Part shown: positions 1,876 through 50,627 of the stretch, in pieces | How positions within the stretch are numbered: position 1 is the first letter of the stretch | Layout of the letters: each line of letters begins with the position of its first letter | Sequence record: MG976803.1 | DNA length: 64,000 nt | Reading direction: 5' to 3' (one strand) | Origin: Escherichia phage myPSH2311 | Notes under the pieces: generated by a model | What the model was told of the DNA's origin: nothing | Databases searched by the model: none | Seen by the model: only the letters and a program-made list of their open reading frames with translations | Made by a program: the position numbers and the translations under genes

Positions 1876-2067
1876 GTAAAGGAAACAGGGAGCTGTCGAA
1901 GATCATCTGATTAACAATCTAAGGATTGTTATAGTTTTATTGCCACGATGTTCTTTTGCAGTGTACCCTTGTAGTGGAGAGGGGAGGTTCTTTGACGAAG
2001 GGACTTTCCCTTTTCTATTTTTAAACTGGAGGAAGCATGTCATTAGATAAACATAGTTAGACGCTTT

Positions 2068-3504
2068 ATGGCATTGCAGATTTTGTCTTTCAAGGCGTAT
2101 GACTTCCAAAAGAAATTTTATGCAGCAGGATTGAAGCATCGCTTTAGATTCTTGTGTGCAGCGAACCGTGTTGGTAAATCTTACAGCGAGGCATACGAGT
2201 TTGCTTGTCATGTCACAGGTCGCTACCCAACTTGGTGGACAGGATATAAATTTAAAAGACCTATCTTAGCATGGGCAGTTGGTATTACAGGGGATTCCAC
2301 AAGGAAAGTATTGCAAAAGGAATTGTTTGGTACACCTATCGGAAAGGATACAAATTTATTGGGGACAGGTGTCATTCCTCGTGATGCTATCGTCATTGAC
2401 ACGATAGAACGAGATGGTAACAAACTTCAAATCGTACAAATCAAACATCAAAATGAAAGAGGAGAATTTGACGGTTTAAGTACATTAGAATTCCGCTCAA
2501 CCCAACAGGGTGAACACACATTGATGGGTGCAACAGTTGACTACATTTGGTTAGACGAAGAAGATCCATACGAGTCTATGGCTATATTCGCACAGTGCGT
2601 CACACGTACACTCACAACTAAAGGTCTAGTTACAATTACAGCTACACCAGAGAACGGTTTAACTGAACTGGTAGATAAATTTATGAAAGGTGAAGGGGAT
2701 GAGAACACAGGTTCTCTATATTTCCAGAATGCTTCTTGGTGGGATGCTCATGCAGACCTAGGTGGACATATCACTGACCAAGATATAAAAGATATGACTG
2801 AAGGTATTCCAGCGTGGCAGTTAGAGATGCGTTCGAAAGGTATGCCATTGTTAGGAAGTGGTTTGATATATGATGTATCGGATGACACAATTAAATGTGA
2901 ACCATTCGAAATTCCGGATACGTGGAAACGTGTCTGTGCAATTGATATTGGTATTGATCACCCAACTGCTGCTGTTTGGACAGCTTACGATGCAAACACT
3001 GATACTATCTATGTTTACGACTCGTATAAAGAAGGTGGCTTTACTCCAGTGTATCATGCTCCAGCTATTAATGGTCGTGGTCAGTGGATTCCTGTCATCC
3101 TACCGCATGATGCGGACAATATTGAGAAAGGTAGTGGTTCATCTGTTGCTCAATTCTATAAAAATGCAGGAGTTAACGTACAGAGTGAGACCTTCTACAA
3201 CAAAATTGGAATGGATGGTAAAAAGAACTTCTTTGTAGAACCGGGAATCACAGATATCCGAGAAAGAATGATGAGTGGACGCTTTAAAATCTTTAACACA
3301 GCCGCTAACGCTAAGCTATTCGAAGAGAAAGCTAGATATCACCGTAAGGTTGGTAAGATTATTAAAGAACATGATGACTTAATGGATGCAATGCGCTATT
3401 CAGCGTGCTCTGTTACACATCGTGGTCGCTCTAAGCATGACGTTAGCTACGGAAGTGCTTCTCTGTATGAGGCAAACGTAAGCAGATGGAATCAGAGTTA
3501 CTAA
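2068..3504 (+). CDS. terminase large subunit
   Basis: 478 aa; P-loop-like CAANRVGKS, Walker B-like DYIWLDEED, nuclease-domain acidic residues (CAIDIGIDH); start uncertain, no SD. Confidence 0.85.
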   Translation: MALQILSFKAYDFQKKFYAAGLKHRFRFLCAANRVGKSYSEAYEFACHVTGRYPTWWTGYKFKRPILAWAVGITGDSTRKVLQKELFGTPIGKDTNLLGTGVIPRDAIVIDTIERDGNKLQIVQIKHQNERGEFDGLSTLEFRSTQQGEHTLMGATVDYIWLDEEDPYESMAIFAQCVTRTLTTKGLVTITATPENGLTELVDKFMKGEGDENTGSLYFQNASWWDAHADLGGHITDQDIKDMTEGIPAWQLEMRSKGMPLLGSGLIYDVSDDTIKCEPFEIPDTWKRVCAIDIGIDHPTAAVWTAYDANTDTIYVYDSYKEGGFTPVYHAPAINGRGQWIPVILPHDADNIEKGSGSSVAQFYKNAGVNVQSETFYNKIGMDGKKNFFVEPGITDIRERMMSGRFKIFNTAANAKLFEEKARYHRKVGKIIKEHDDLMDAMRYSACSVTHRGRSKHDVSYGSASLYEANVSRWNQSY

Positions 3505-3565: not shown

Positions 3566-5296
3566 ATGGCTAAGCAAAAATATAGTGAAGAGGTGTTGGA
3601 CGAGTTACGTGTTGACCTTCAACGTCGTTTTAATTACGCTCAAGGTTACGTGGACATGGCTGTTAAGGGCTATGCTCGTGAAGCTTGGGAATATTTCTAT
3701 GGTAACTTACCTGCACCAGTAACTGCTGGCAGCTCTAGTTGGGTAGATCGTACTGTTTGGGAATCTGTTAACGGTACATTGCAAGATATTATTAACGTAT
3801 TCTGTTCTGGTGATGAAGCAGTTACTTTCGTAGCTGACAACCAACAGGATTCTGATGCTGCTGATGTAGCAACTAAACTAGTTAACCAAATTCTTCTGCG
3901 TGATAATCCGGGATACAATATTATCTCTTCTGCTGCACAAGAATGTCTAGTTACTCGTAACTCTTTTATCAAGTATTATTGGGATGAACAAACTTCTACT
4001 CAAACTGAAGAAGCTGAAGGTGTACCACCGGAAGCATTGGCTGCATATGTTCAGGGATTAGAAGCTGGTGGACTCAAGAATCTGGAAATCTTCACTGAAG
4101 AAAATGAAGATGGTACAGTGGATGTTAAAGTTACTTACGAACAAACTGTTAAACGTGTGAAAGTTGAATATGTCCCTTCAGAGCAAATCTTTGTTGACGA
4201 ACATGCTACCTCTTTTGCAGATGCACAATACTTCTGTCATCGTGTTCGTCGTTCTAAAGAAGATCTGGTTGCTATGGGCTTCCCTAAAGACGAGATTGAA
4301 GCATTCAACGACTGGACAGACACGATGGATACTACTCAATCTACAGTTGCTTGGTCTCGTACTGACTGGCGTCAGGATATTGATGCTGATATTGGTACAG
4401 ATACCGAAGATATTGCTTCTATGGTTTGGGTTTACGAGCACTACATTCGTACTGGTGTTCTAGATAAGAATAAAGAGTCTAAACTCTATCAGGTTATTCA
4501 AGCTGGTGAGCATATCCTTCACACTGAAGAAGTAACTCACATTCCGTTTGTAACCTTCTGTCCGTATCCGATTCCAGGCTCCTTCTATGGTCAATCGGTC
4601 TATGACATTACGAAAGATATTCAAGATTTACGTACCGCGTTAGTTCGTGGTTATATTGATAACGTCAACAATGCTAACTATGGTCGATACAAAGCTCTTG
4701 TTGGTGCATACGACCGTCGCTCTCTGCTTGATAACCGTCCCGGTGGAGTGGTTGAAATGGAACGTCAGGACGCTATTGACCTGTTCCCATACCATAACCT
4801 ACCTCAAGGTATTGACGGCCTCCTAGGCATGTCTGAGGAGCTTAAAGAGACACGTACAGGTGTAACCAAACTAGGCATGGGTATCAACCCTGATGTGTTT
4901 AAGAATGATAACGCTTATGCAACTGTAGGCTTGATGATGAATGCTGCACAGAACCGTCTCCGTATGGTGTGTCGTAACATTGCTCACAACGGTATGGTTG
5001 AATTGATGCGTGGTATTTACAACCTTATCAGAGAAAATGGTGAAGTCCCTATCGAGGTACAAACCCCTCGCGGTATGATTCAGGTAAATCCGAAACAATT
5101 ACCAGCTCGTCACAATCTCCAAGTTGTTGTAGCTATCTCTCCTAATGAGAAAGCAGAACGTGCACAGAAACTGATTAGCTTGAAACAGCTGATTGCAGCA
5201 GATGCACAGTTAGCACCTCTCTTTGGTTTGGAGCAAGACCGTTACATGACTGCACAGATCTTTGAGTTGATGGGTATTAAAGATACACATAAATAA
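3566..5296 (+). CDS. portal protein
   Basis: 576 aa ORF immediately after terminase; size and position typical; RBS GAGGGAGAGAA. Confidence 0.7.
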   Translation: MAKQKYSEEVLDELRVDLQRRFNYAQGYVDMAVKGYAREAWEYFYGNLPAPVTAGSSSWVDRTVWESVNGTLQDIINVFCSGDEAVTFVADNQQDSDAADVATKLVNQILLRDNPGYNIISSAAQECLVTRNSFIKYYWDEQTSTQTEEAEGVPPEALAAYVQGLEAGGLKNLEIFTEENEDGTVDVKVTYEQTVKRVKVEYVPSEQIFVDEHATSFADAQYFCHRVRRSKEDLVAMGFPKDEIEAFNDWTDTMDTTQSTVAWSRTDWRQDIDADIGTDTEDIASMVWVYEHYIRTGVLDKNKESKLYQVIQAGEHILHTEEVTHIPFVTFCPYPIPGSFYGQSVYDITKDIQDLRTALVRGYIDNVNNANYGRYKALVGAYDRRSLLDNRPGGVVEMERQDAIDLFPYHNLPQGIDGLLGMSEELKETRTGVTKLGMGINPDVFKNDNAYATVGLMMNAAQNRLRMVCRNIAHNGMVELMRGIYNLIRENGEVPIEVQTPRGMIQVNPKQLPARHNLQVVVAISPNEKAERAQKLISLKQLIAADAQLAPLFGLEQDRYMTAQIFELMGIKDTHK

Positions 5297-5340
5297 TTGC
5301 CGATTTTCAGGTTGAGAACGTACAGGCTTCTTCTCAGAAG

Positions 5341-7117: not shown

Positions 7118-7453
7118 ATGGCTAATCCAACTTTATTTGTATCGTATGACCAGAATGGTAAAAAACTTTCTTTTGCTAACTGGATTTCTGTTCTGTCCCC
7201 TCAGGATACCCCGTTCGTATCTATGACCGGTAAAGAGTCTATCAACCAGACTATCTTTAGCTGGCAGACCGATGCACTGGCAAGCGTTGACAGTAATAAC
7301 GCACACGTCGAAGGCTCTCGTGCTGAAGACGGCGAAATGAAACCGACTGTTATCAAATCTAACGTTAATGGTCCTTTGGACGTGGTAACTGATTGCAGTG
7401 TCAAGTCTTGGCATATGTCCATGTCCATGGCATTAAGCTATAAAGGCGCTTAG
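7118..7453 (+). CDS. major capsid protein, N-terminal segment (ends at in-frame TAG)
   Basis: RBS AGGAG upstream; same reading frame as 7463-8065, separated only by TAG at 7451-7453 plus 9 nt. Confidence 0.55.
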   Translation: MANPTLFVSYDQNGKKLSFANWISVLSPQDTPFVSMTGKESINQTIFSWQTDALASVDSNNAHVEGSRAEDGEMKPTVIKSNVNGPLDVVTDCSVKSWHMSMSMALSYKGA

Positions 7454-7462
7454 ACATGCGTA

Positions 7463-8065
7463 TTGCGTCTGAATGACACCCATGCAGCTCGTAAGACTGG
7501 TGCATTCCAGTTCCTGTGTGCTCACGGTGGTCTGGCTGGTGGCGTTGTTGACAAGACCAAGAATGGTCCTGCTGACCCGGACACTGGTGCAGTAACTGTT
7601 AAAGTTGCACAGAATGCTTCTAACCCGACCACTAACATTGGTTTCGACGAAGCTGATATCTTTGATATGACTCTGCAACTGTATACCGCTGGTTCTGAAG
7701 CAGATATCATCATGATTAACCCGGCTCATGCTAAGATCTTTGCTGGTCTGCAAGAAAATACTCAGGGTTCACGTAAGCGTATCTTTGAGAACACCAAGCA
7801 GTTCATCTACGAAGTTAACAGCATCACTGACCCGCTGGGCCAGAGCTACAAAATCATCGTTAACCGTTGGATGCCTACCGATGCAGTTTACTTCTTCCGT
7901 AGCGCTGACTGGACCCAGATGGTTCTACGTGCTCCGAAACGTACTGAACTGGCTAAAGACGGTTCTTACGAGAAGTGGATGATTGAAATGGAAGTTGGTC
8001 TGCGTCACCGCAACCCGTATGCTTCCGGCGTTCTGTTCACTGCTGCGGGAAAGGTGGCGGCGTAA
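7463..8065 (+). CDS. major capsid protein, C-terminal segment
   Basis: 200 aa, TTG start in track, no SD; in frame with 7118-7453; followed by slippery site and Ig-like ORF. Confidence 0.55.
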   Translation: MRLNDTHAARKTGAFQFLCAHGGLAGGVVDKTKNGPADPDTGAVTVKVAQNASNPTTNIGFDEADIFDMTLQLYTAGSEADIIMINPAHAKIFAGLQENTQGSRKRIFENTKQFIYEVNSITDPLGQSYKIIVNRWMPTDAVYFFRSADWTQMVLRAPKRTELAKDGSYEKWMIEMEVGLRHRNPYASGVLFTAAGKVAA

Positions 8066-9454: not shown

Positions 9455-10579
9455 ATGATCGTTTATAACAACCAAGCACCTAAGAATGTTAACAATGTAG
9501 GACAATTTGGAGCTACTGAGGGAACTATTGGTGCTTATAAATCAGCAGCTGAATATGCAGCAGACTCTAAATATTGGGCATTGTTGTCCCAAACTAAATA
9601 CTCCTCAGTAGAGGAGATTTTGGCTGAAGTAGAACGTCTGTATGCTCAAGGTCATCTACTGGAAGAAGACATTAAACAACTCAAGAGTGACTTTGAGTCA
9701 CAAGAACAAGTGCTCTTAGGTTTGATTCAATCCACAGGAACTGCAATTGACAACACCAATGCAGCAACTGAGCTTTCAAAAGAGGCAACTCAAAACGTTC
9801 TAGCACAACTTGACATTATCTCTAACATGACAGTTCAAACAACGCTTCTTCCTCCGGGAAGCCTAGCTACGGGGTCTTATGATAATGCAACAGGTGTCTT
9901 TGCTTTTGGTATTCCAGAAGGTAAACCGGGGCGTGATGGTACTGACGGAACAATCGGTGATATTGGAAGCGTTCCTGTTGGTACCCCTGTTGTTGATGAC
10001 TATGGTTTCTATGTAGATAAAGATGATGGTGGTTTATACCGAGCTGACATGTCAGATATTGCCAACTTGATTCCATCTGTTCGATCTGTTTCAATCAATG
10101 GCGGCGCTGAACAAACAGGTTCAGTGGTTTTTGATTCTGTCTCCACATTCAATGGACGTAAGGGTGCTGTAGTTCCTGCTACTGGAGACTACACAGCTGC
10201 TCAAGTGGGAGCTTTTAGTGTAACTAATAACCTATCCGAAATAACCGACACAAGTGCAGCTATTACAAATATTGGACTCGCTGAGCATGGGATTGGTAGC
10301 CCTACCTTAACCAAAGTGAAGGCTATGGACTGGCAAACATTTAATTTTGTCAATGGAGGTAACTATTCAGTATTAATGTCGAATATTACAAATGCCCCTG
10401 CTGAGATAAATTATCCTGCCAATTATGGGTTATATCTTGAAGTCATTGGCGTAGTTACAGGAGGAGGTGAGGTACGAGTGGTGCCAATTGCATTGGGAAT
10501 CCTCTCAATGGCATATTTTCCGCTTGGCCAATGCGCTTATGCCGTGGCAAATGTGCCACAACTGCTGCATTGTGTGTAG
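9455..10579 (+). CDS. tail fiber protein, N-terminal segment (ends at in-frame TAG)
   Basis: RBS AAGGAG; short collagen-like GKPGRDGTDGTIGDIG; TGDYTAAQVGA fiber-type motif; last 30 codons look non-native. Confidence 0.5.
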   Translation: MIVYNNQAPKNVNNVGQFGATEGTIGAYKSAAEYAADSKYWALLSQTKYSSVEEILAEVERLYAQGHLLEEDIKQLKSDFESQEQVLLGLIQSTGTAIDNTNAATELSKEATQNVLAQLDIISNMTVQTTLLPPGSLATGSYDNATGVFAFGIPEGKPGRDGTDGTIGDIGSVPVGTPVVDDYGFYVDKDDGGLYRADMSDIANLIPSVRSVSINGGAEQTGSVVFDSVSTFNGRKGAVVPATGDYTAAQVGAFSVTNNLSEITDTSAAITNIGLAEHGIGSPTLTKVKAMDWQTFNFVNGGNYSVLMSNITNAPAEINYPANYGLYLEVIGVVTGGGEVRVVPIALGILSMAYFPLGQCAYAVANVPQLLHCV

Positions 10580-10705
10580 CATCGCCAGCTTAGCGCTGCA
10601 TCAATTGTACCTATTACCAAAGGTGGTACAGGAGCTACTTCATCAGAGAATGCTCGACTAGCTCTAGTTGCAGCTAAGAGTGGTGATAACTCTGATATCA
10701 CCTCG

Positions 10706-12445
10706 ATGACCAACAAGGTTACTTTCACACAATCTCCAGTAATTCCTGATGCTGTAGATGATAATGACGCGGTTGCTTTGAGACAGTTGCATACAAGTGA
10801 AGCAGATTTGCTGGCAAGGCTGAAAAGTAGTAATGCAGGTGAAGGTGCATCCCTTATTACCTTTGAAAATGGTAATTCTGTTGAGAGTCTTTCCAGTAAA
10901 GATGGGGCTAAAAACATTGGCAGTGGTGAGAGAAGTTTGCTTGTCCGTAACAACGACATTAAGCATTCAGGAGATTTCCCTACCTTACAAGCTGCGGTAA
11001 ATGCATCGTTACCAAAAAACGACTTAATTGTTTCCCCCGGTGAATACAGTGAAGCGATTACTATTGGTAGTACACAGTTAAAGGGTGTTGGTGGAGCCAC
11101 GGTACTGAAAGCTCCGTCAAACTTTACAGACACTATTCAGGTTAAGGCATCTACGCCTCATTGGCAATTCCGCCATAGTGGTGGTTTTGCTATAGATGGT
11201 TCTGGGACAACCGGGGCTGTAGGTATTAGTTTTGACCCGACCGACCAATATGCTGGTCGTCACAACTTTAGTGACGTATACATCCATAACATTAACAAGG
11301 CCATTCAGAAACCTTCCGGGAATATAGGTAATACATGGAAAGGCATTGGCGTGCAAGGTTGTGACTGGGGTTACTGGGCACAGTCTGCTTCTGAGATGCA
11401 CTTAGGCTCTGACACCCTTCAGAACATGCACTTTGATGGTATTAGCACTTACTGTGTTTACTTGAACGCTACAACAGGAGAAGCGCCTGGTACATTCGGA
11501 GGTGGTGTAGGCGGCTGGTGGATTAAAGATAGTATTATGGAAGCCTCTGGCGGTGGTGGTATTTACCTCAAGAACAAGGATGGTGACTGCCCTACTGCCC
11601 CATGTGGTGTATCCAATGTATGGATGGAAGCTATCGCTACTACTCCAGCTATTAATGTAGATGGTGTATCTCAGAAGCCTCGTGTCCTTAAACTTATTGA
11701 TACCAGTATCTTCTTTGCAGAGTACACATACCTTAATAACGTAGAGCTTCAGAACTCCAACCTTGTTACTTATGGCTGCCGAGTAGATAATTCAGATGGC
11801 CACATGGATATCTCTGTAGATGCCAACAGCAGTTTTGTGGCTGATCAATTGTACCTGAATGGTAGCTCCGGCAAAGATGTAATGGTACGTTCTGTAGCGG
11901 CTCAGACAGGCAAGATTGGGCAAAGCTGGTCACCTAATATGAGTATGCGTGGATACCTGCCGGAAGGATACATCTATCGTGTACCTGGTAATAAGCTGGT
12001 AGCTAAACCCTTCGATGGAGGTACTGCTGAATTTAGTGGTACGGCAAGCAGCACTGGGAGTTTGCAGCCACAAGGCCAGTTATCTCAGAGCTGCATGTAC
12101 TTCGAAATCCCTGGTGCTGCTGAGTATGAGCTTACTGGTGCTGCATTTCAGATAACTTCCGGTAACTGGTATGTATGGGGCATTAGCACTGAACTGGTAC
12201 AGGGAACCCCTACAAACTTCCGCATCGGTGGAGATATCAATGTAGGTGAAGTATTTACTAAGGGGGGCCAGTGGGTGAGTACCTTTGGTGTAGCTCAGGC
12301 TAGTGCTTCCGGTTCAGTGAACCTGCGCCTAAGTACAGCCGGTACAGGCGGAGTAGTCCTACGCCTCGCTGATTACTTCGTAGCGGAGTTCACTACTCAG
12401 GCAGAGGCTATGCGCTTCGCTAATAGTAGACGTGCCCTGCGTTAA
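10706..12445 (+). CDS. tail fiber/tailspike protein, C-terminal segment
   Basis: 579 aa; frame is open from 10580, directly after the TAG, and encodes VPITKGGTGATSSENARLAL fiber motif before the track start. Confidence 0.55.
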   Translation: MTNKVTFTQSPVIPDAVDDNDAVALRQLHTSEADLLARLKSSNAGEGASLITFENGNSVESLSSKDGAKNIGSGERSLLVRNNDIKHSGDFPTLQAAVNASLPKNDLIVSPGEYSEAITIGSTQLKGVGGATVLKAPSNFTDTIQVKASTPHWQFRHSGGFAIDGSGTTGAVGISFDPTDQYAGRHNFSDVYIHNINKAIQKPSGNIGNTWKGIGVQGCDWGYWAQSASEMHLGSDTLQNMHFDGISTYCVYLNATTGEAPGTFGGGVGGWWIKDSIMEASGGGGIYLKNKDGDCPTAPCGVSNVWMEAIATTPAINVDGVSQKPRVLKLIDTSIFFAEYTYLNNVELQNSNLVTYGCRVDNSDGHMDISVDANSSFVADQLYLNGSSGKDVMVRSVAAQTGKIGQSWSPNMSMRGYLPEGYIYRVPGNKLVAKPFDGGTAEFSGTASSTGSLQPQGQLSQSCMYFEIPGAAEYELTGAAFQITSGNWYVWGISTELVQGTPTNFRIGGDINVGEVFTKGGQWVSTFGVAQASASGSVNLRLSTAGTGGVVLRLADYFVAEFTTQAEAMRFANSRRALR

Positions 12446-23824: not shown

Positions 23825-24172
23825 ATGGCTAACATTAAACCGTGGGAAGAAGCTTCCAAAGCTCCTGCGTATCTGAATGCCTCTCCGGAGCAACAAGCTC
23901 AAATGAGAGAACAATATAAGGCAGCAGGTGGCTCTATTCCTGAGGAACAACCAGTAGCACAACCACAACAAGAAGAACGTGGTGCTATAGGTGAGTTTGC
24001 TCAAGGTGTGTCAAATGCTCTTCAATCTGGTGGTGCAAATATTGCAGCTAGTGCTGCTAAAGGTATTGGTGGTTTAGTTGAGATTGGTGAGAATCTAGCT
24101 GGAGCACAAACTAGTTATGGTAAGCGTATCCAAGAGAACTCTCAGAAAGTCAGTGTCATGAGTTGCTGGTGA
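23825..24172 (+). CDS. internal virion protein, N-terminal ORF
   Basis: ATG at 23825 preceded by AAAGGAGA; G/A-rich; ends 8 nt before the next ORF in the +1 frame. Confidence 0.5.
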   Translation: MANIKPWEEASKAPAYLNASPEQQAQMREQYKAAGGSIPEEQPVAQPQQEERGAIGEFAQGVSNALQSGGANIAASAAKGIGGLVEIGENLAGAQTSYGKRIQENSQKVSVMSCW

Positions 24173-24179
24173 TATCGGT

Positions 24180-26972
24180 TTGACAGTTGCTAACCCATTG
24201 GCTGCTGCTGCTATCATCGCAGGTCGTGAGACAGGTCGTGCATATGCAGACCAAACCCCTGAAGAGGGAGAAGATAAGTCTATTCTAGATGCAGCCTTAG
24301 TTGGTGGTGCTAACTATGCGGCTCAGAGAATCCTTCCGGGTGCTGTCGGTACAGCTGAGTCCACACTTGGACGTATTGGTCAGAACGTTGCTAGTAACGC
24401 AGTGGCTGGTGCTAAAGGTGGCGCTCTTGTGGGTGCTGCTGAAGCTCAGAACAAGCATGGAGATGATACAACCTTTGCTAATGTATTAGAGGGTGCTATC
24501 GAAGAAGGTGCTATGGGTGCTGCATTCGGTGGTGCAGTTGGTGGAGTTCATGGTTTGATTAGCCGTCCAGATTCTGCTGTCTTCAAGAATACTCCAGAGT
24601 ATGCGAAGACTGATATTGCTGCTGATGATGAACTAATTCGTAGTGCTAAGAATATTGATGAACTGAAAGAAGCTTACTCTAAAGCTGAAACTGCTAACGC
24701 TGCTTCTGCTCTGAATCTTCTGGATGAGAATGGATTCCGTATTACAGATGCTGTTGCTGTGGATTCTCCTGCTGCTCAGCGTATTCTTAATACTGACCAA
24801 GCTCGTGCTGAGAAAGCTGCTTCTGTTCAGAAAGAACATTCCAACATTCCGGGCCTTAATCCTTTAGCTTCTCCTGCTAAGACTCGTGGTAAAGCATTTG
24901 CTGATAATGAGCACAACCAGAAGCAGGCTGTTGCTATGAAGGATGCAATGGCTGACTACACCAAAGACAACACGAAAGCTCTTACAGATGTTCTAGATAA
25001 CCTAGACCGTGAATTAACTTCTCTCCGAGCTTCTGGTGATTTTACTGGTAGTCCGATTGATATTAAGAATCGTACACAAGCTGACCGTGATTTCATTGAT
25101 GCTTACAAGACTTTCTACAATGAAGCAAATCGATTCAAAGCTCGTGAAGGTGAAGATTTTAATAACTTTGTAGAGAAAGCTACTGAACTACAGAAGATGG
25201 CTGATAATGTTTCTCCAGAGATGAAGAAAGCTATCGGTGGGTTGAAGAAACTGAAAGGTATGCCTGAAGGTTTTAATCCTATTCAAGATGCTTATACTCT
25301 GAACAATACAGCTAAATTCATGAGCAACCAAGATCGTGGTTGGACTTCCTTGACTGATGATGGATTCCGTGAAGCTTCTTCACCTAGTCTGGTAATGAAC
25401 ACTCTTGGTGCTGCTAAGTATGCTCTGAATCGCTTCTCTTCTCAGCGTGCTCGTTCTCAACGTGTTAAGCAACAAGAATCTAACAGTGAAGCTATCCGCT
25501 CTCTTGCTCGTGGTGATTTGGAAGTTGCTCGTGCTAAATCTACTGCTGATGAAGCTCGTGCTAAGATGGAAGAAGAACCAGTTGTTGATGACATTAAATT
25601 TAAGACGCAAAATGACGTAGAAACCGAACCGGTTCGGGAGCCTTCTTCTAGTACTGTGACGGAAGAAAATCTTCCTTCTTCTACTCCTCAAGAGACTCCT
25701 CTTACAGCTCGTGATTTAGTTGCGCAAAGACGCGCTATCCGTCAGGCTGAACAGCGTCGCGCTGAAGAAGAGGCATTGGCTGCTCAAGAAGCTCCGGTCG
25801 AACAGGCTCCACAGGCTGAACCTCTCCCTGCTCGTAACCCTCTAGAGGAGCGTCGTGCAATGGAACAGCAACGTGCTCAAGAAGAGGCCGCACAGGCTCC
25901 AGAACCTACCGTAGAGGAACCAACAGTCAAAGCTGAGCCATTACCTGCCCGTGCTCCTAAAGCTCCTAAGGAAGCTGTACAGGACGTTAAACCGGCAAGT
26001 GGTGTAGAACGTTTAGCTGCTATGTCTAGTGCTGCTCGTCAGGCTACTAAAGATCGTGCAGAACGCTTTGCTCGTTCTCTGTACTCTAAGGCTGCTAAAG
26101 CTAAAGCTACTGCTGAAAACTTCTTGGCTTATAAAGGTGATCCTAAGGAACTGATGCGTCGTATTCGTCAGGAAGATAATGCTATCAACACTGAACGTCA
26201 TGAAGAAATGGCTCGTAACCAGAGTTGCATGTCCGAAGCGGTTATCGAGGAACGTGGTCTGCCAGAAGACATTGCTACTAAGGCATTACGTGCTGAAGAG
26301 AAAGGTTTAGGTGGGAACGTAACTAACTTGGATAGTCTGAAACGTCGTGCTGAAAGGTTGTATCAGAAGCAGCGTGAAGATGAGTTTGATAGACTGTACC
26401 AACAAGCTCTAGAAGAGAATAAAGCTTTCGATAACAAGAATGCTCCTAAGCTGGTTGACCAGAAGAAAGAGCTTCAGTCTGAGATTGATACTTTGATTGA
26501 TGCAGAACCTTTACGTCCTGCTCAGAAAGACGCTATGCGTAAATTGATGAATGACTTTGTAGATGGAAAGTTTAAATCTTCAGAGAAGGCTGGTAGGGAA
26601 GAGGCTTTGGAAGTTGGTCAGATGAAGGATATTTGGGATGGGTTTATTAACACCTATAACAGAGAAGTGAATGCCTTCAACAAAGCTAACAAGAACTCTC
26701 AGTACGAAGCTGCTGCTAAGCATTTACAGGCTCGTGAAGAACGTCTTGCTACACTCAGGAAAAAGGCTCAGGCTCGTTCGGATGCTAAAGCTGCTGTTGA
26801 GAATGAACGTAAAACTCTAGAGGCTATTGCAGCTCAGAAGAGTGAGATTGAGAAGATGATGGAAGGTTTACCTAAACCTGTTCGTGAGGCTCAGGAATCT
26901 CGTACACTGAAACAGTTGGCTGCTCACCACGATAAGAACTCTCCAGTTCCTCCAGAGAAGTTCCGTAGTTAA
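24180..26972 (+). CDS. large internal virion protein
   Basis: 930 aa; TTG start without SD; G/A-rich N-terminus, long charged coiled-coil segments, internal EPLPAR repeats. Confidence 0.55.
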   Translation: MTVANPLAAAAIIAGRETGRAYADQTPEEGEDKSILDAALVGGANYAAQRILPGAVGTAESTLGRIGQNVASNAVAGAKGGALVGAAEAQNKHGDDTTFANVLEGAIEEGAMGAAFGGAVGGVHGLISRPDSAVFKNTPEYAKTDIAADDELIRSAKNIDELKEAYSKAETANAASALNLLDENGFRITDAVAVDSPAAQRILNTDQARAEKAASVQKEHSNIPGLNPLASPAKTRGKAFADNEHNQKQAVAMKDAMADYTKDNTKALTDVLDNLDRELTSLRASGDFTGSPIDIKNRTQADRDFIDAYKTFYNEANRFKAREGEDFNNFVEKATELQKMADNVSPEMKKAIGGLKKLKGMPEGFNPIQDAYTLNNTAKFMSNQDRGWTSLTDDGFREASSPSLVMNTLGAAKYALNRFSSQRARSQRVKQQESNSEAIRSLARGDLEVARAKSTADEARAKMEEEPVVDDIKFKTQNDVETEPVREPSSSTVTEENLPSSTPQETPLTARDLVAQRRAIRQAEQRRAEEEALAAQEAPVEQAPQAEPLPARNPLEERRAMEQQRAQEEAAQAPEPTVEEPTVKAEPLPARAPKAPKEAVQDVKPASGVERLAAMSSAARQATKDRAERFARSLYSKAAKAKATAENFLAYKGDPKELMRRIRQEDNAINTERHEEMARNQSCMSEAVIEERGLPEDIATKALRAEEKGLGGNVTNLDSLKRRAERLYQKQREDEFDRLYQQALEENKAFDNKNAPKLVDQKKELQSEIDTLIDAEPLRPAQKDAMRKLMNDFVDGKFKSSEKAGREEALEVGQMKDIWDGFINTYNREVNAFNKANKNSQYEAAAKHLQAREERLATLRKKAQARSDAKAAVENERKTLEAIAAQKSEIEKMMEGLPKPVREAQESRTLKQLAAHHDKNSPVPPEKFRS

Positions 26973-27139
26973 TTGCAAGCCTTTTAAGGCGCGCTGAAGC
27001 GGCTTTAAATGGCGCTAAATCGTGCAAAATGCCCATTGGGAGCCTGAATGGCGCGTGTTTTGCATAAGCCGGCGTTTGCCCAGTTCGTAAGGCTGGTATT
27101 TTGCTGTAAAGCGTGATTCATCGCCGCCTGATGCGTACT

Positions 27140-27982
27140 ATGGAAGATAAGGGCATATCTAGAGAGGATGCTGAAGCATTTGCTGGTTCCTATATGGATA
27201 ACCGTTATGCACTTCTTGAGAAGCCTATGACTCCTACTGAACATCAGAATGCTCGTTCTCGTATCGAAGCTGATGTTGAGAAGTTTGCTAAGAAGTACGA
27301 ATCAATGACTCCTATCGAGAAAGAGATTGTTAAGGTTACTGGAGATACTGAAGGTAAGCTTGATAACTTGGATGCGGATACTAGGAAGGCTATTGAGGAG
27401 GCTCAGAAGGTTGACTCTGATATTAAGAAACTGCAAGAGGAAGAGTTGGAGATGGAGAAGATTCGTTCTGCTCTGCCTGATGATGAAAGATCTCAAGCAA
27501 ATTCTGATATCTTGGAAAGCATTAAACAACAGGAAGAGGTCTTTGCTGATAAAGTAGAGAAAGCTTTCTTGAGTGGGAAGAGCTTGGATGAGTTGGCTAG
27601 TGTGGCTGAAGTTTTAGACAGGGTTCATGGTGCAGATAAGGCTGGTAACAACCGTCGCTTTGTACGTGCATTGCAGACTGCTGCTGAAAACAAGAAGAAG
27701 TATGGTGATAATCCAGTAGCTTGGTTTAGTGCTGATGATTACTCTGCCATTGCTAAACTTGGTGCTTCTTCCGCAGGTGGTAACAAATCCAGAGCACTGG
27801 AGAAGATCTTTGGTTCTACAGCTGAACAGGCTAAGAGTAAGTTGCTTGGTAGGGATGATGTAGCGAAGATGAGACGTGTGATTGAAGAGAACCCTGATAT
27901 CAAGATTCCTTCTTACAAGACAGGTCAGGTTTCCAGTCCCAGTCAATGGGCATGCATGGTCCAAAATCGGCCCCTAGGGTAA
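27140..27982 (+). CDS. internal virion protein, truncated by insert
   Basis: track ORF 27113-27982; native-looking reading frame runs to 27922, last 20 codons derive from the filler. Confidence 0.45.
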   Translation: MEDKGISREDAEAFAGSYMDNRYALLEKPMTPTEHQNARSRIEADVEKFAKKYESMTPIEKEIVKVTGDTEGKLDNLDADTRKAIEEAQKVDSDIKKLQEEELEMEKIRSALPDDERSQANSDILESIKQQEEVFADKVEKAFLSGKSLDELASVAEVLDRVHGADKAGNNRRFVRALQTAAENKKKYGDNPVAWFSADDYSAIAKLGASSAGGNKSRALEKIFGSTAEQAKSKLLGRDDVAKMRRVIEENPDIKIPSYKTGQVSSPSQWACMVQNRPLG

Positions 27983-28022
27983 CGTCGGAATCCGGTACGC
28001 TTATGCCCCTAAGTGCATTTTT
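27923..28022. other. 100-bp GC-rich filler between perfect 81-bp direct repeats
   Basis: 27842-27922 is identical to 28023-28103; the intervening 100 bp is unrelated to flanks. Confidence 0.8.
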
Positions 28023-28247
28023 TTGCTTGGTAGGGATGATGTAGCGAAGATGAGACGTGTGATTGAAGAGAACCCTGATATCAAGATTCCTTCTTACAAG
28101 ACAACAAATCGTACTGAGTACTTGCAGTTCTTGGAGAAGTTTAATGACGAAGGGAAGCCTAAGATTAAACGTGGCTCATTGTCAGAGAAGCTTGAACGCA
28201 GTAAGCGTCAATCGAGACTCCGTGTAAGAGTTCGACCTAAGGAGTGA
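28023..28247 (+). CDS. internal virion protein, C-terminal remainder
   Basis: 74 aa; its first 27 codons repeat the duplicated segment of the upstream ORF. Confidence 0.45.
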   Translation: MLGRDDVAKMRRVIEENPDIKIPSYKTTNRTEYLQFLEKFNDEGKPKIKRGSLSEKLERSKRQSRLRVRVRPKE

Positions 28248-28524
28248 TAAAAGAAAAGCCCAGGGCTCGTTCAAGTCAAATGATGGGCTAGTCAATTAAG
28301 CCCCTTGGGCATAGCTGGCAATGCTAGTCACAACTTCTTCATTCATATACCCTCCTAGATTGTGTTTATAAAATTAGTAAGTTTCTCTTCACTTTCATCA
28401 AAAGCTTTTCCAGCTGCTTCCATCTCCCAAGTATCGGCATTGTCAATAAAGCTCTGAGCTTCTAATAGGTCGTGGATTAAGTCGAAGAGTTTATTTTTAT
28501 CTGCTTGTGTGATCATGTCAGTTC

Positions 28525-28791
28525 CTAGATTAAATCGTAATACTGAATAATGTCAGAGAGTTTGAACTCTCGAATCTCATCTTTCTCTACATCTATCGCT
28601 GTCATAATCCAACAAGGTTTGCCACCGTTATGAAAACGGGAGCTAGCAACGGAGGTTCGGAGTGGAATAACGGACCGGTCAGCAACCTCGCCTCTCCAAT
28701 TGCGATAGCGAAAGCGAAGCACTTGTTGCGTAGATTTTTGATCATCACTCATTTCCTTTTTTGAATTGTTTTCTTGCATCATTATTGGCAA
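28525..28791 (-). CDS. hypothetical protein
   Basis: 88 aa ORF, last gene of minus-strand module. Confidence 0.4.
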   Translation of the reverse strand: MPIMMQENNSKKEMSDDQKSTQQVLRFRYRNWRGEVADRSVIPLRTSVASSRFHNGGKPCWIMTAIDVEKDEIREFKLSDIIQYYDLI

Positions 28792-29078
28792 TGCTTAACG
28801 TAACTAGCTTGGGCTTCATGGTCAAGAGGAACTATAGGCTCTATGTGGTCAATAGCCATATCCTTTACAGGGTGGTCAGAACCACACATGGCACACTTAA
28901 AGTGCATTGCCAGTCTACCTGTCTTTGGATTAATCTTCTGCTCTGTCTTGGCGTCTGCTAGTGCATCGAACATGGGCTTCCACTTTCTAGTCAGAGAACG
29001 AATCCCTGACTTGATAAAAGAATTGTAACGAGCTTCAGTCCACATTCCAGAGCATCTAGTCTTCTCAGCCTTCGCCAT
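28782..29078 (-). CDS. HNH nuclease-domain protein
   Basis: 98 aa; HFKCAMCGSDHPVKDMAIDHIEPI matches HNH C..C/His motif. Confidence 0.5.
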   Translation of the reverse strand: MAKAEKTRCSGMWTEARYNSFIKSGIRSLTRKWKPMFDALADAKTEQKINPKTGRLAMHFKCAMCGSDHPVKDMAIDHIEPIVPLDHEAQASYVKHCQ

Positions 29079-29256: not shown

Positions 29257-29451
29257 TATAATATCCTTATTACCAAGATTTATCTAACCATGTCCAGTCG
29301 AACAGGTCTTCCGGAGTCTGACCAACAAAGAGCAGCCGAGCATTCTCAAGCATCTTCTCTTCATCTTCAGTATCGAACTTCTTATAATATTCCATTCGTA
29401 CTATATGATACATGGTCCAAGCCTGCATTGAACCGTAAAGCCCTTAGGCTG

Positions 29452-30078
29452 TTAGTTACCACCCCACATAACCTCTTTACGTTCCCCACATCCGGGGATG
29501 TTATCCGTACCATCTCCAATCAACATTTGATAGAAGAAGTTTTGCCATGAAACTAAATCAGATACGTAATGAGGAGGGACTTCTTTCTGTCTTTCTCCAC
29601 AAGCCCAGCGATAATGCCATCCGGGAGTTATCAACAAATCCTTGTCTCTAGTACAGATGATAGTATTCTTATCCCTACGTTGCCTTTCAGCTAGTGCATC
29701 ATCAGCCTCTCTCCCAAAGACCTCAATGTATTCGTACTTGGCTTTAATGTAATCACCAACGTTTTGCCAGTGAAAAGGTCTTTCTCCGGGAGGTCTGTTT
29801 GCCTTGTAGTCTTGTTGCTTAGCAACATCGAAACGGAAGTTACCGCCTTCGCTGAAGTAGAATACAACCTTACTACAACCCGAGCGAGCTATAATTGTAT
29901 CAATCTTGTACTGAAGTCGTTCAATCATGAAATTGTAATCAACTGGAACACGTCCTGTGTCAAGGAAGGGATGCTCCTGAGTAAGAGCACCCACTTCATA
30001 CCGAAGAACGTCAGCGTCCACTATAGCAACTTCAGGGAGCTTAACTTCTTCCATAAATATCATCCTGAGCTTGAGCAA
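29452..30078 (-). CDS. 5-3 exonuclease / flap endonuclease (PIN-like), possibly C-terminally truncated
   Basis: FDVAKQQDYKANR, GREADD, DKDLLI, LIGDGTDNIPG motifs; the helix-hairpin-helix part appears missing. Confidence 0.65.
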   Translation of the reverse strand: MLKLRMIFMEEVKLPEVAIVDADVLRYEVGALTQEHPFLDTGRVPVDYNFMIERLQYKIDTIIARSGCSKVVFYFSEGGNFRFDVAKQQDYKANRPPGERPFHWQNVGDYIKAKYEYIEVFGREADDALAERQRRDKNTIICTRDKDLLITPGWHYRWACGERQKEVPPHYVSDLVSWQNFFYQMLIGDGTDNIPGCGERKEVMWGGN

Positions 30079-30940: not shown

Positions 30941-32182
<1,242 letters not shown>

Positions 32183-34426: not shown

Positions 34427-34723
34427 TTAGATAGTTAATTTGTGATCTTCCTCCGCTCTGTTTCTAACAGAGACGGCTTCTTCTAGGGTTGAGAAAGTTC
34501 CTAGGTATTTAGTTTTCGTTGAAAGGCTTAAGGCTTTTGGCATAGCTGCAAAATGGGCCCGTTAATATGACCCGTTAAAGGCTTTTTTGGCATGCGTAAA
34601 AGGCTTGCTTAAATTTCCTGCCTCATCACCCCGCCTGCATTTTGTTCCGTTGCGAATTCTCCAGAACACTTTCCCAGATGATAAATCACAAACAAAGAAC
34701 TCATCCAGAAGATCTTCTATCAT
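34427..34723 (-). pseudogene. HNH-AP2 homing endonuclease remnant with internal filler
   Basis: 5-prime 26 codons MIEDLLDEFFVCDLSSGKVFWR and 3-prime end KYLGTFSTLEEAVSVRNRAEED flank a GC-rich filler at about 34515-34645. Confidence 0.5.
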
Positions 34724-39856: not shown

Positions 39857-40292
39857 TTATGAGCTTAAAGCTCCTTTGCGTGCTCCAGCTGCTTTTCCAG
39901 CTCGATCACCACTTTTGCCGCCGTTTGAACGGTTTGAGCTGACTGATTCAACACGTAAGTTGCTTGACGCATTAGAGCCTCCAGACTTGACAGCTCGTTT
40001 GTGTCCAACGTCTTTACCTCTGACAGCAGCTTTTCCATCGCGCTTTTCAACGATGCGACGTGCACGGTGGCGCTGAGCATCTCCGCTCTTGCTCCCAATT
40101 CCCGTTTCACCGCGCTTGATCGCAGTCCTTCTTTCTTGTGCATAATCTCTCTTTCCTACATGATCTGCCATTAGATTTCTCCTGTTGGGCAATGACGTTA
40201 AACGCCCGTTGTGGCCCAAAATTGGCGCCCAAAATTGGGGCTTAATGCGTGCGTAATTTTTGGGCCAAATTAAGGCCGTATATAATAACAGC
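39857..40292. other. GC-rich segment fused in frame to the PhoH ORF; coding status unclear
   Basis: two overlapping minus-strand frames both look protein-like; local GC well above phage average. Confidence 0.4.
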
Positions 40293-41750: not shown

Positions 41751-42095
41751 TTAACTCTCCAAAGTTTTCTTCAGAGCTGCCCATGAGATTGGGTAGAGCT
41801 TAGCCATCTCTTCATCTACGGATTTAGCAAACACTCGAACTTCATATTGAGCGTGAGATGAGAGTCGCTGACGACACAACTCAAACCAGCCATACAAAGA
41901 ACCAGTCCACACCCACTCAGTGATCATCCCCTGAGGAAGAACAAATCGAGCTTGCTCTGGTGCAATAAATTCAATCAACTTGTCATATGTTGCTAGAGAA
42001 GCTTCATATGCATCGTTAATCAACATTAATGCTTCAGCTCGTTCTCCGTCGATGAGTTGAATCCCTGAACCTGCATGGTTTGCCCAAAATGGCAT
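41751..42095 (-). CDS. thyX: flavin-dependent thymidylate synthase ThyX, C-terminal half
   Basis: ARFVLPQG..RLSSHAQYEVR matches ThyX C-terminal conserved block. Confidence 0.6.
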   Translation of the reverse strand: MPFWANHAGSGIQLIDGERAEALMLINDAYEASLATYDKLIEFIAPEQARFVLPQGMITEWVWTGSLYGWFELCRQRLSSHAQYEVRVFAKSVDEEMAKLYPISWAALKKTLES

Positions 42096-42163
42096 TGGCG
42101 CTATAGCATGGGGCTTTTTAAATGGCCCCGCGGGTTAATGCTAATGGCGGATTTTGGCCACGG

Positions 42164-42469
42164 TTATGCATGCGTAGGGAGTTCAACTGCTCCATCTTTA
42201 TACCGCCGGGACATTTCGTTCCACGAGAATCCAACCTGATGCTTGCCCAGCTGTCTCGCAATTGCGATAGGTGCTTTGCATCGGAAACTGACTTGCGGGT
42301 GTCGGAATGGAGTACAGTGTTTTTCCCGTGCAAGGAAGTTGATAAGTTTTGTGTCTCTCTCATTTAAGTCACCTTCTCGAACAACACCGAAAGATACTCT
42401 AGCTGCATTGACTACAGATTTGTCACTACCCATTGCTTCAATCAGTGTTGCTTGTAGTTGTTCGTTCAA
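42164..42469 (-). CDS. thyX: flavin-dependent thymidylate synthase ThyX, N-terminal half
   Basis: AARVSF, HCTPFRH and KH..FSWNEMSRRY resemble the ThyX signature; separated from the C-terminal half by a filler. Confidence 0.6.
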   Translation of the reverse strand: MNEQLQATLIEAMGSDKSVVNAARVSFGVVREGDLNERDTKLINFLAREKHCTPFRHPQVSFRCKAPIAIARQLGKHQVGFSWNEMSRRYKDGAVELPTHA

Positions 42470-43422: not shown

Positions 43423-44034
43423 TTAGTAAGACACGTCACCACTTGAATGGGACATGTTGCTCTTGACGAAGTAGCAATACTTGCCAAGACCTTCATTAAT
43501 TTCTTGAAGCATACTCTGATCGACAGGGTAGGATGCTAAATCGCCATCAAACTCATCCATCTTCTCAATAATACACATCAAGGTCATGCACATATCAGAG
43601 AGCATACCGTCCATGTCTAGATCAGCATTACCCTCTGAGAACCAGGCATGGGAGAGGTAGTTAGCCGCTGTAGCATCCACCTTAACGCAGTGGTATCGCA
43701 TACGCTCAGCAATACGATCTCCTACCTGTCGTGCGTAATCTTCCAGCTCGTCAAACATACCATGAACACCCTGAAATCCTGCACCAGAGACATTCCAGTG
43801 GTAGTTTTTAGCTTTGATATGCAAGAGTTCCATGTTAGCTTGTAAGCAGCTCAGGATGTGTTCTAGGCTGTTTGCACTAATCATGCCTTGCATTGTTTCA
43901 AGGCGAGAGATTGAAAGCTCAGACCGGTCTAACATACTATAACTGTCACGACCAATCTCAGGTAAATCAAAAACATTCTTATGCATTTGGGTTTTCTCCA
44001 TCAAGTTCAACTGAGTTAGCAACATTACGTGCAA
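43423..44034 (-). CDS. hypothetical protein
   Basis: 203 aa ORF. Confidence 0.45.
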   Translation of the reverse strand: MHVMLLTQLNLMEKTQMHKNVFDLPEIGRDSYSMLDRSELSISRLETMQGMISANSLEHILSCLQANMELLHIKAKNYHWNVSGAGFQGVHGMFDELEDYARQVGDRIAERMRYHCVKVDATAANYLSHAWFSEGNADLDMDGMLSDMCMTLMCIIEKMDEFDGDLASYPVDQSMLQEINEGLGKYCYFVKSNMSHSSGDVSY

Positions 44035-44237
44035 TATTATCCATTACCTGCTGGGTAATTACGATGCAGTTTAGGCATGGTAATGCGTTTAGGCGTCTTG
44101 GGGAGGTGCCCCCAGTTGCAAGCTGATGCTGCGGGTAAATTGGCGCCATGGGAAACGCGTTAATGCGTGCCTGATGTTATCTTTTCTCATGTGTTGCTCA
44201 AGATCCCAAACAACATGAATAGCCCACATCTTTTTCA

Positions 44238-45381: not shown

Positions 45382-45498
45382 TCTTGCTCCTTAGTTATTT
45401 GTTTCCATTTAAGCGTGCATATTTTGGCTAATTTTTGGCGTAAAAGTTTTCGCCCAGTGCCTGATTGAACCGGGTCGTAATTATTGCCCGGGTAGTGT

Positions 45499-45591
45499 TT
45501 AAAATGGCGAGGAATTAACAGCTGAGTGTGGTGCATCAATAACACCATCATCAATTAATTTATGTAACTCTGGACTTCCTAGTAAACTCAT
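45499..45591 (-). pseudogene. diverged duplicate of the dCTP deaminase 5-prime end
   Basis: encodes MSLLGSPELHKLIDDGVIDA then runs into filler; compare MSLLGSVELHDVIDNGYLDA of the intact gene. Confidence 0.55.
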
Positions 45592-48785: not shown

Positions 48786-48905
48786 ACCAAAATTGCGTGA
48801 CGTTGGCTAATTGCTGACGTGGAATGGCCCTGGCAATTGGGATGCCCCGTGTTAGCTGCGATTTGGCGCGTTATTGGCCCCGTGTTTGCAAGTAATGCGC
48901 GGGCT

Positions 48906-49515: not shown

Positions 49516-49606
49516 TTCTACACGAACAGGCTTGTTGTTATTGCTGTGTGCGAGAGAGATGCTCGGGAAGTAGGAACCACCGTAACGGAACAGATCAAAG
49601 TTGTCT

Positions 49607-50137: not shown

Positions 50138-50190
50138 AAAACCTCCAGCTTATCCGAACTAGCCTCCTCTTTCGAAGAGGCTAAAGCAGA

Positions 50191-50621: not shown

Positions 50622-50627
50622 ATATCC

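What the first reader, a model, noticed from the sequence alone, without database searches (positions are those of the whole stretch)
9455..12445. Tail fiber frame interrupted by an in-frame amber next to a non-native-looking segment
ORF 9455-10579 and the downstream ORF share a frame across TAG 10577-10579, and the frame is open from 10580 and encodes the fiber motif VPITKGGTGATSSENARLAL before the track start at 10706. The roughly 100 bp before the TAG (about 10483-10579) carries filler-type k-mers (CCAATTGCATTGGG, TTGGCCAATGCGC) and encodes an atypical hydrophobic stretch.
Basis: seen in the sequence. Interest (0 to 1): 0.6.

Follow-up and report, generated by a model that had tools for sequence, protein, structure and literature searches.

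The report
Assembly filler breaks tail fiber gene
The stop codon splitting this phage tail fiber gene lies inside a 113-base block that is not phage sequence and replaces 188 bases of the real gene, one of about 25 such defects in a reference-guided draft assembly, so it is a data artefact and not biology.

Summary
ORF 9455-10579 and the frame downstream are one reading frame broken by TAG 10577-10579, and the sequence around the TAG is non-native.

The window is bases 1-64000 of Escherichia phage myPSH2311: 79 of 82 published CDS coordinates are clean ORFs here. This is a Kuravirus genome built by CLC assembly plus CONTIGuator2 reference-based ordering.

The tail fiber gene is base-for-base identical to phage myPSH1131 (99.9% to ES17) except for 10487-10599. 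There, 113 bp replace 188 bp of native gene, a net loss of 75 bp, so the frame is kept.

The lost block encodes 63 residues. They are present, in uninterrupted ORFs, in ES17, myPSH1131 and J1, and are conserved in a 91%-identical IMG/VR relative and a 45%-identical one (SGF2).

The 113 bp match nothing in the phage, E. coli, IMG/VR, GTDB or JGI collections searched. They share k-mers with about 15 other unmatched blocks in the window, many of them exactly 100 bp. Two of those sit between duplicated contig ends.

Terminase, portal, capsid and other genes are broken in the same way. There is no suppressor tRNA, and TAG is an ordinary stop in this phage.

Verdict: scaffold-gap or filler artefact. 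The real phage almost certainly has the intact 1021-aa fiber. Interest is very low.

The parts
9455..10486 (+). Native 5' part of the tail fiber gene (codons 1-344 of the ES17-TFP orthologue), with the SD AAGGAG upstream of ATG 9455.
   Evidence: Identical base for base to myPSH1131 and 99.9% to ES17. Residues 1-227 match PHROG 10305, tail fiber.
10487..10599 (.). Non-native 113-bp block that replaces 188 bp of the gene. The lost 188 bp encode 63 residues, GTNNNNYYSVFSVSWTGGVGSRVFTVREELSSARPVTISQGGTGATTASAARTKLGLGLVSTE.
   Evidence: One search gives the exact boundaries. No match in phages, E. coli genomes, IMG/VR (18), GTDB genomes (21) or JGI metagenomes. Composition and k-mers resemble the window's other unmatched blocks. 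No Rfam family, no unusual folding, no terminal repeats and no other copy in the window.
10577..10579 (+). In-frame TAG, lying inside the non-native block.
   Evidence: One stop in this frame of the block is the chance expectation.
10600..12445 (+). Native 3' part of the tail fiber gene (about codons 408-1021 plus the stop). It includes the second GGTGAT motif (10607-10666) and the C-terminal receptor-binding module.
   Evidence: Identical to myPSH1131. PHROG 27367, tail fiber, E = 7e-234. The module is described as the pectinesterase-like / K5-lyase-like part of ES17-TFP (PMC7885116).
10706..12445 (+). Mechanical ORF of 579 aa starting at the first in-frame ATG. It is not a separate gene.
   Evidence: No Shine-Dalgarno sequence upstream: GATATCACCTCG precedes the ATG. 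This ATG is an internal Met codon of the intact gene in the relatives.

Best explanation
The interruption is an assembly artefact, not a property of the phage. The window is the deposited genome of Escherichia phage myPSH2311. According to its paper, that record was made by de novo CLC scaffolding of a 5.9-Mb mixed assembly, followed by reference-based ordering with CONTIGuator2. At 10487-10599 a gap in the assembly is occupied by 113 letters that were not read from the tail fiber gene. They stand in for 188 real bases.

Because 188 - 113 = 75 is a multiple of 3, the frame happens to be restored downstream. Because the letters are effectively random with respect to the frame, they contain a stop (TAG) and translate to a meaningless peptide.

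Shown here: the identity of the record, the exact substitution, the conservation of the missing native block in relatives, the absence of the 113 bp from all collections searched, and the presence of the same kind of lesion throughout the window. Inferred: that the real phage carries the intact 1021-aa fiber seen in ES17 and myPSH1131 (an N-terminal anchor, two GGTGAT linker motifs and a C-terminal glycan-binding module), and that the block marks a scaffold gap of mis-estimated length. Who or what wrote letters instead of Ns into the gaps cannot be determined from the sequence.
For: (1) Record identity. 79 of 82 CDS coordinates in Table S4 of PMC6437105 are clean start-to-stop ORFs in the window. 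The methods state CLC assembly plus reference-based assembly by CONTIGuator2.

(2) Exact substitution. The 1032 bp before and the 1846 bp after the block are identical to myPSH1131, and 113 bp replace 188 bp.

(3) The native block is conserved and the ORF uninterrupted in relatives. These are ES17, myPSH1131 and J1, SGF2 gp012 at about 45% identity, and IMG/VR UViG_3300045988_017452 at 91%. The intact 1021-aa protein is also present in an independent Logan assembly, whereas neither window ORF exists in a collection of 15 billion proteins.

(4) No source for the block. There is no match for the 113 bp, nor for 1672 bp of pooled blocks in phages or E. coli genomes.

(5) A class of lesions. About 15 further unmatched blocks exist, eight of them exactly 100 bp. 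Blocks 27923-28022 and 49607-49706 sit between exact 81-bp and 110-bp duplications, which are unmerged overlapping contig ends joined by a fixed spacer. Nine short blocks of 7-36 bp replace 51-96 native bp.

(6) Composition. The blocks' dinucleotide biases differ sharply from native sequence (TC 0.42 vs 1.09, GC 1.76 vs 0.98). They also ignore the strand switch in GC skew. The target block shares their k-mers.

(7) Essential genes broken the same way. These include large terminase, portal, major capsid, the giant internal protein, small terminase, exonuclease and ThyX. A plaque-forming phage cannot carry all of these defects at once.

(8) Independent literature. ES17-TFP was cloned and purified as one protein (PMC7885116). 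A Kuravirus survey excluded four genomes for assembly errors judged by terminase completeness (PMC9965538).
Against: This block is 113 bp, not the 100 bp of the clearest spacer blocks, and it has no flanking duplication. Its assignment to the same class therefore rests on composition and context. Its compositional score is only moderately extreme: about the 99.7th percentile of native windows and the weakest but one of the blocks. No raw reads were available, so absence of the block from the physical phage is inferred and not observed. The accession MG976803 is not in the local collection. I therefore could not confirm that the deposited record has these very letters, rather than Ns, at 10487-10599. 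Only the lengths and coordinates are confirmed.
Confidence: 0.93

Rival explanations
1. The letters were not in the deposited record. The record has runs of N at its scaffold gaps, and these were turned into letters at some later step of data handling, before the window was read.
For: Many blocks are exactly 100 bp, the conventional length for a gap of unknown size. The accession could not be inspected. Stretches such as ATGCATGCATGCATGC at 51370-51460 look generated rather than sequenced.
Against: The sister record myPSH1131 came from the same laboratory and pipeline and was read directly from the local GenBank-derived collection. It has only 2 Ns, yet it contains 99-100-bp blocks unmatched in ES17. 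One of its unmatched segments, 58202-58444, has the same compositional style. This suggests the letters are in the deposits. Either way, the conclusion for the finding is the same: artefact.
Confidence: 0.15
2. A real mutation. The sequenced phage population really carries a 113-bp replacement in the fiber gene, giving a truncated 374-aa anchor fragment. Such a defective variant might be complemented by co-infecting relatives.
For: The assemblies from this laboratory contain duplicated regions at 87-95% identity. This suggests several related kuraviruses in the lysate, which could complement a defective genome.
Against: The flanks are 100% identical to myPSH1131, so a 113-bp stretch of complete non-homology has no evolutionary gradient. 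The block has no source in any collection searched. More than 20 similar lesions hit terminase, portal and capsid at once. The block shares k-mers with spacer blocks that lie between overlapping contig ends.
Confidence: 0.04
3. Programmed expression. The amber codon is read through by a suppressor tRNA or by context-dependent readthrough, or the two halves are made as separate anchor and receptor-binding proteins.
For: The frame is shared across the TAG. Split anchor and receptor-binding-protein arrangements do exist in other phages (general knowledge).
Against: There is no tRNA in the window, and the only tRNA of ES17 is Arg-TCT. TAG ends 8 of 64 long ORFs in ES17 and 7 of 59 in the window. 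The stop is absent from every relative. There is no Shine-Dalgarno sequence before ATG 10706. There is no RNA family and no unusual structure. Readthrough would also insert 37 nonsense residues in place of 63 conserved ones.
Confidence: 0.01
4. A mobile element, intron or intein remnant inserted in the fiber gene.
For: Kuraviruses carry homing endonuclease genes; ES17_62 and ES17_71 are annotated as such.
Against: The block is not an insertion, because 188 native bp are missing. It has no inverted or direct terminal repeats, no second copy in the window, no Rfam intron or ribozyme match, and no ORF.
Confidence: 0.01

Closest known systems
ES17 tail fiber protein ES17-TFP (ES17_14, QPL11059.1, 1021 aa), and the identical unannotated ORF of myPSH1131
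   Same: The gene order is the same (after the ES17_13 homologue, before holin and lysin). DNA identity is 99.9-100% over 2878 of 2991 bp. The N-terminal anchor and the C-terminal pectinesterase-like / K5-lyase-like module are the same.
   Different: The window lacks 63 internal residues, including the first of the two GGTGAT motifs. In their place it has 38 unrelated codons with a TAG.
Scaffold-gap spacers in reference-ordered pseudo-assemblies (CONTIGuator-type pseudocontigs; from memory, contigs are joined by a fixed 100-N spacer)
   Same: The flanks are collinear with the reference and native sequence is missing. The block length is unrelated to the true gap. Sister blocks of exactly 100 bp lie between overlapping contig ends. 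The record was made with this software.
   Different: The gaps hold A/C/G/T letters of unknown origin instead of N. This particular block is 113 bp.
Kuravirus tail fibers with exchangeable C-terminal modules (SGF2 gp012; IMG/VR UViG_3300045988_017452)
   Same: They share the N-terminal anchor and the conserved block ...EVRVVPxTNxNxxY...GSRxFxVREELSSAxPVTxSQGGTG, followed by a module junction.
   Different: Their C-terminal modules differ. They have one GGTG motif where ES17 and myPSH1131 have two. None carries the window's block.

Membership tests
Kuravirus tail fiber (ES17-TFP orthologue) | N-terminal anchor domain and C-terminal receptor-binding module homologous to known fibers | tested here: met
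   PHROG 10305 (E = 2e-73) and PHROG 27367 (E = 7e-234). 100% DNA identity to myPSH1131 outside the block.
Kuravirus tail fiber (ES17-TFP orthologue) | Conserved position between the ES17_13 homologue and the holin/lysin genes | tested here: met
Kuravirus tail fiber (ES17-TFP orthologue) | A single uninterrupted ORF | tested here: not met
   TAG at 10577-10579. The ORF is intact in ES17, myPSH1131, SGF2 and the IMG/VR relative.
Scaffold-gap / spacer artefact | Flanks collinear with close references, native sequence missing, replacement unrelated to it | tested here: met
   113 bp for 188 bp, with no similarity between the two.
Scaffold-gap / spacer artefact | Replacement sequence has no counterpart in any natural sequence collection | tested here: met
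   for the block. for 1672 bp of pooled blocks.
Scaffold-gap / spacer artefact | Fixed spacer length (100 bp) and/or unmerged overlapping contig ends on both sides | tested here: not met
   This block is 113 bp with no flanking duplication. The feature is met by sister blocks, for example 27923-28022 (81-bp duplication) and 49607-49706 (110-bp duplication).
Scaffold-gap / spacer artefact | Composition shared with the other spacer blocks and unlike the genome | tested here: met
   7-mer sharing of 39/107 against 15.1 +/- 5.1. Markov score above the 99th percentile of native windows, though at the weak end of the blocks.
Scaffold-gap / spacer artefact | Record produced by scaffolding or reference-guided ordering | tested here: met
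   Window coordinates equal the published myPSH2311 CDS table (79 of 82). Methods state CLC plus CONTIGuator2.
Scaffold-gap / spacer artefact | No sequencing reads support the block | not testable with these tools
   Raw reads are not available here.
Programmed amber readthrough / suppression | Suppressor tRNA, or TAG avoided as a terminator elsewhere in the genome | tested here: not met
   No tRNA in the window. The ES17 tRNA is Arg-TCT. TAG ends 7-8 long ORFs.
Programmed amber readthrough / suppression | Stop codon conserved in relatives | tested here: not met
Mobile element / intron insertion | Host sequence intact on both sides, with terminal repeats or a ribozyme/ORF inside | tested here: not met
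   188 bp of host gene are lost. No repeats and no Rfam match.

The most novel reading that the evidence does not exclude
The phage stock really contains a fiber gene in which a 113-bp sequence of unknown origin has replaced the first GGTGAT linker block. The fiber would then be made as an amber-terminated 374-aa anchor, or as a 996-aa readthrough product in suppressor hosts. That would be a natural split or conditional receptor-binding protein.
Probability: 0.02. Interest if true: 0.45.

Novelty: not a real feature. Interest (0 to 1): 0.04.

Why it matters
This has no biological significance. It matters only as a data-quality warning. The myPSH2311 record, and apparently its sister record myPSH1131, contain blocks of letters that are not phage sequence and that break many genes. 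Gene calls, pangenomes, host-range or receptor-binding-protein predictors and sequence models that use these records will inherit false truncations and false 'novel' sequence. The real tail fiber is most likely the already characterised heparan-sulfate-binding ES17-TFP type.

Tried and rejected
- **RNA family.** An Rfam scan of 10387-10699 at E <= 10 gave only two chance-level hits far below their gathering scores.
- **RNA folding.** Folding the block on both strands gave z = -1.3 and -0.7, which is unremarkable.
- **Repeats.** Repeat and TIR searches found nothing beyond one chance 14-mer direct repeat (10470-10483 / 10672-10685, 86%) that does not bracket the block, and a self-BLAST found no second copy in the window.
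- **tRNA.** The scan found none in the window.
- **Pfam.** No family was found for either half or for the intact ES17 protein.
- **Source of the block.** Exact and BLAST searches in five collections found nothing, and pooled blocks found nothing either.
- It was repeated with a window-derived peptide.
- **Accession.** Fetching MG976803 directly failed because it is not in the local collection.
- **Composition alone.** This is not decisive for the block. A clean genome (ES17) has about 0.3% of windows scoring as high, so the verdict rests mainly on the comparative evidence.
- **Rejected readings.** I considered an intron, intein or mobile element, a split-gene architecture and amber suppression, and rejected each; the reasons are given under the rival explanations.

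Full report
**What is in the sequence.** The frame that starts at ATG 9455 (preceded by AAGGAG) runs to TAG 10577-10579, reopens at 10580, and continues to TAA 12443-12445. That is 996 codons including the TAG. The motif VPITKGGTGATSSENARLAL lies at 10607-10666, before the first in-frame ATG at 10706. That ATG has no Shine-Dalgarno sequence.

**What the window is.** Megablast places the region in the Kuravirus (phiEco32-like) phages. It is 100% identical to Escherichia phage myPSH1131 and 99.9% to ES17. In each case the match comes in two pieces that cover 96% of the query and span 75 more bases in the records. In ES17 the gene is one annotated CDS, ES17_14 'tail fibers protein', 3066 nt / 1021 aa.

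The coordinates in the published CDS table for Escherichia phage myPSH2311 (MG976803; Table S4 of PMC6437105) fit the window. Of the 82 listed CDS below 64000, 79 are clean start-to-stop ORFs at exactly those coordinates, and the other three are off by one or two bases. The window is therefore bases 1-64000 of that record, with all its lengths preserved. The published annotation has no CDS between 9446 and 12671. [quoted passage not shown] The sister phage myPSH1131 was handled in the same way. The accession itself is not in the local collection.

**The lesion.** Base-by-base comparison shows 1032 identical bases from 9455 to 10486 and 1846 identical bases from 10600 to 12445. Between them, 113 bp in the window (10487-10599) stand in for 188 bp in myPSH1131/ES17. 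The two versions are unrelated.

The lost bases encode 63 residues: GTNNNNYYSVFSVSWTGGVGSRVFTVREELSSARPVTISQGGTGATTASAARTKLGLGLVSTE. This includes the first of two tandem GGTGAT linker motifs. The window instead has 38 codons: IALGILSMAYFPLGQCAYAVANVPQLLHCV, a stop, then HRQLSAA. The TAG is thus inside the foreign block, and the block is a substitution, not an insertion. The difference of 75 bp is divisible by 3, which is why the frame is shared across the stop.

**Do homologs have an equivalent?** They do not. The native block is present in an uninterrupted ORF in the following:
- ES17, myPSH1131 and the record called Mycolicibacterium phage J1.
- Shigella phage SGF2 gp012, about 45% identical in this region: EVRIVPFTNTNAKYITYAVRASGAIGSRTFIVREELSSALPVTVSQGGTG.
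- An independent 76.6-kb IMG/VR contig, 91% identical: EVRVVPRTNNNNYYSVFSVRWTGIVGSRVFTVREELSSARPVTISQGGTG.

The exact 1021-aa protein also occurs in a Logan assembly, whereas neither window ORF (374 aa or 579 aa) exists in the collection of 15 billion proteins. ES17-TFP has been cloned and purified as a single protein that binds heparan sulfate (PMC7885116). [quoted passage not shown] That is exactly what the split seen here would produce.

**Where does the 113 bp come from?** No source was found. It has no significant match in 50,697 phage records or 5,426 complete E. coli genomes. No exact 26- to 40-mer was found in IMG/VR, GTDB representative genomes or JGI metagenomes. It matches no Rfam family and folds no better than shuffled sequence. 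It has no terminal repeats and no other copy in the window.

**It is one of many.** Whole-window comparison with ES17 and myPSH1131 shows long blocks of 99-100% identity separated by about 25 breaks.
- About 16 breaks are unmatched blocks of 68-166 bp. Eight of these are exactly 100 bp: 27923-28022, 34517-34616, 42079-42178, 44072-44171, 45409-45508, 49607-49706, 60549-60648, plus one of 99 bp at 7368-7466.
- Two 100-bp blocks sit between exact direct duplications of 81 bp and 110 bp. These are two overlapping contig ends that were never merged but were joined by a fixed-length spacer. That is the signature of a scaffolder, not of a genome.
- Nine further breaks replace 51-96 native bases with 7-36 unrelated ones.

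Pooled, 1672 bp of blocks have no match in phages or E. coli. Their dinucleotide biases are unlike the genome: TC 0.42 vs 1.09, GA 0.45 vs 1.09, GC 1.76 vs 0.98, AA 1.74 vs 1.00. They also keep a positive GC skew in the right arm, where native sequence is negative.

The tail fiber block shares this style. Thirty-nine of its 107 7-mers recur in the other blocks, against 15.1 +/- 5.1 for native 113-mers. Its leave-one-out Markov score is above the 99th percentile of native windows, although it is among the weakest of the blocks.

The lesions break the large terminase (first 38 residues lost), the portal (frame switch), the major capsid protein (7368-7466, also with a TAG), the giant internal protein (four pieces in alternating frames), the small terminase, an exonuclease and ThyX. 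A plaque-forming phage with a measured burst size, as reported in PMC6437105, cannot have all these defects. A survey of kuraviruses excluded four genomes for assembly errors judged by the terminase ORF (PMC9965538).

**Chance and recoding.** Seven of 19 lesions have length differences divisible by 3, about the expected third. Thirty-seven random codons include a stop 83% of the time. The 'in-frame amber' therefore needs no special explanation. There is no tRNA in the window. ES17's single tRNA is Arg-TCT, and it lies in a 1.8-kb stretch that the window replaces with the block at 60549-60648. TAG is a normal terminator in this phage.

**Conclusion.** The most likely account, at about 0.93 confidence, is that 10487-10599 marks an assembly gap of mis-estimated length in a reference-ordered draft, occupied by letters that were never read from the gene. 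The real phage would then carry the intact ES17-type 1021-aa fiber.

It remains open whether those letters are in the deposit or were written over Ns later. The sister record myPSH1131 was read directly from the GenBank-derived collection. It has only two Ns, yet it has 99-100-bp blocks unmatched in ES17, and one stretch (58202-58444) has the same style. This points to the deposits themselves. A genuine mutation (0.04), programmed readthrough (0.01) and a mobile element (0.01) are each contradicted by several tests. The finding is not a real biological feature. Its only value is as a warning about these records.

Noticed in passing
window 1-64000: The window is bases 1-64000 of Escherichia phage myPSH2311 (MG976803). 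79 of 82 published CDS coordinates are clean ORFs here. The record is a CLC plus CONTIGuator2 reference-ordered draft, not a finished genome.
   Followed up: yes
window 7368-7466: The major capsid gene (ES17_11 homologue) is broken by a 99-bp unmatched block that replaces 210 native bp and also contains a TAG. The gene appears as two ORFs, 7118-7453 and 7463-8065.
   Followed up: partly
window 26976-27115, 27923-28022, 28262-28329, 34517-34616, 40185-40286, 42079-42178, 44072-44171, 45409-45508, 48792-48957, 49607-49706, 51370-51460, 52764-52859, 54527-54623, 60549-60648: These are further unmatched blocks, many exactly 100 bp. They have a distinctive composition (rich in GGCC, AATGC, TTGGC and AAAA/TTTT runs, plus ATGCATGCATGCATGC) and no match in phage or E. 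coli collections. The block at 60549-60648 is unmatched but native-like in composition.
   Followed up: partly
window 27842-27922 = 28023-28103; 49497-49606 = 49707-49816: Exact 81-bp and 110-bp direct duplications flank two 100-bp blocks. These are unmerged overlapping contig ends joined by a fixed spacer.
   Followed up: yes
window 2066-2077, 5296-5307, 24148-24161, 26223-26247, 28784-28811, 29420-29455, 31115-31140, 49335-49346, 60848-60854: These are short lesions in which 51-96 native bp are replaced by 7-36 unrelated bp. They truncate or frameshift the large terminase, portal, the giant internal protein, small terminase, exonuclease and others.
   Followed up: partly
window 49779-54524: Three tandem copies of a 1.2-1.6-kb segment (the ATP-grasp region, single-copy in ES17) sit at 91-95% mutual identity, separated by filler blocks. 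myPSH1131 has the same arrangement. This probably reflects several related phages in the lysate being scaffolded in series.
   Followed up: no
window 60549-60648 (ES17 64323-66108): The tRNA-Arg(TCT) gene of ES17 lies in a 1.8-kb stretch that is missing here and replaced by a 100-bp block. This explains why myPSH2311 is listed with 0 tRNAs in the Kuravirus survey.
   Followed up: partly
L003/L004 (MG983840.1) 43970-44069, 53386-53485, 58202-58444, 62761-62859, 64515-64614, 68562-68661, 72591-72689: The public myPSH1131 record also has 99-100-bp blocks with no counterpart in ES17 or in the window, and internal duplications at 87-95% identity. Its segment 58202-58444 scores like the window's filler blocks.
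   Followed up: partly
MZ417522.1 (Mycolicibacterium phage J1) 15786-18475: A 24,953-bp record labelled as a Mycolicibacterium smegmatis phage carries this E. coli kuravirus tail fiber gene at 100% identity. This is likely contamination or mislabelling.
   Followed up: no
window 10607-10666 and ES17 residues about 384-403: ES17 and myPSH1131 fibers have two tandem GGTGAT...AR..L(G)L linker motifs, whereas SGF2 and the IMG/VR relative have one at this junction. The C-terminal modules diverge shortly after it, consistent with a module-exchange junction.
   Followed up: partly
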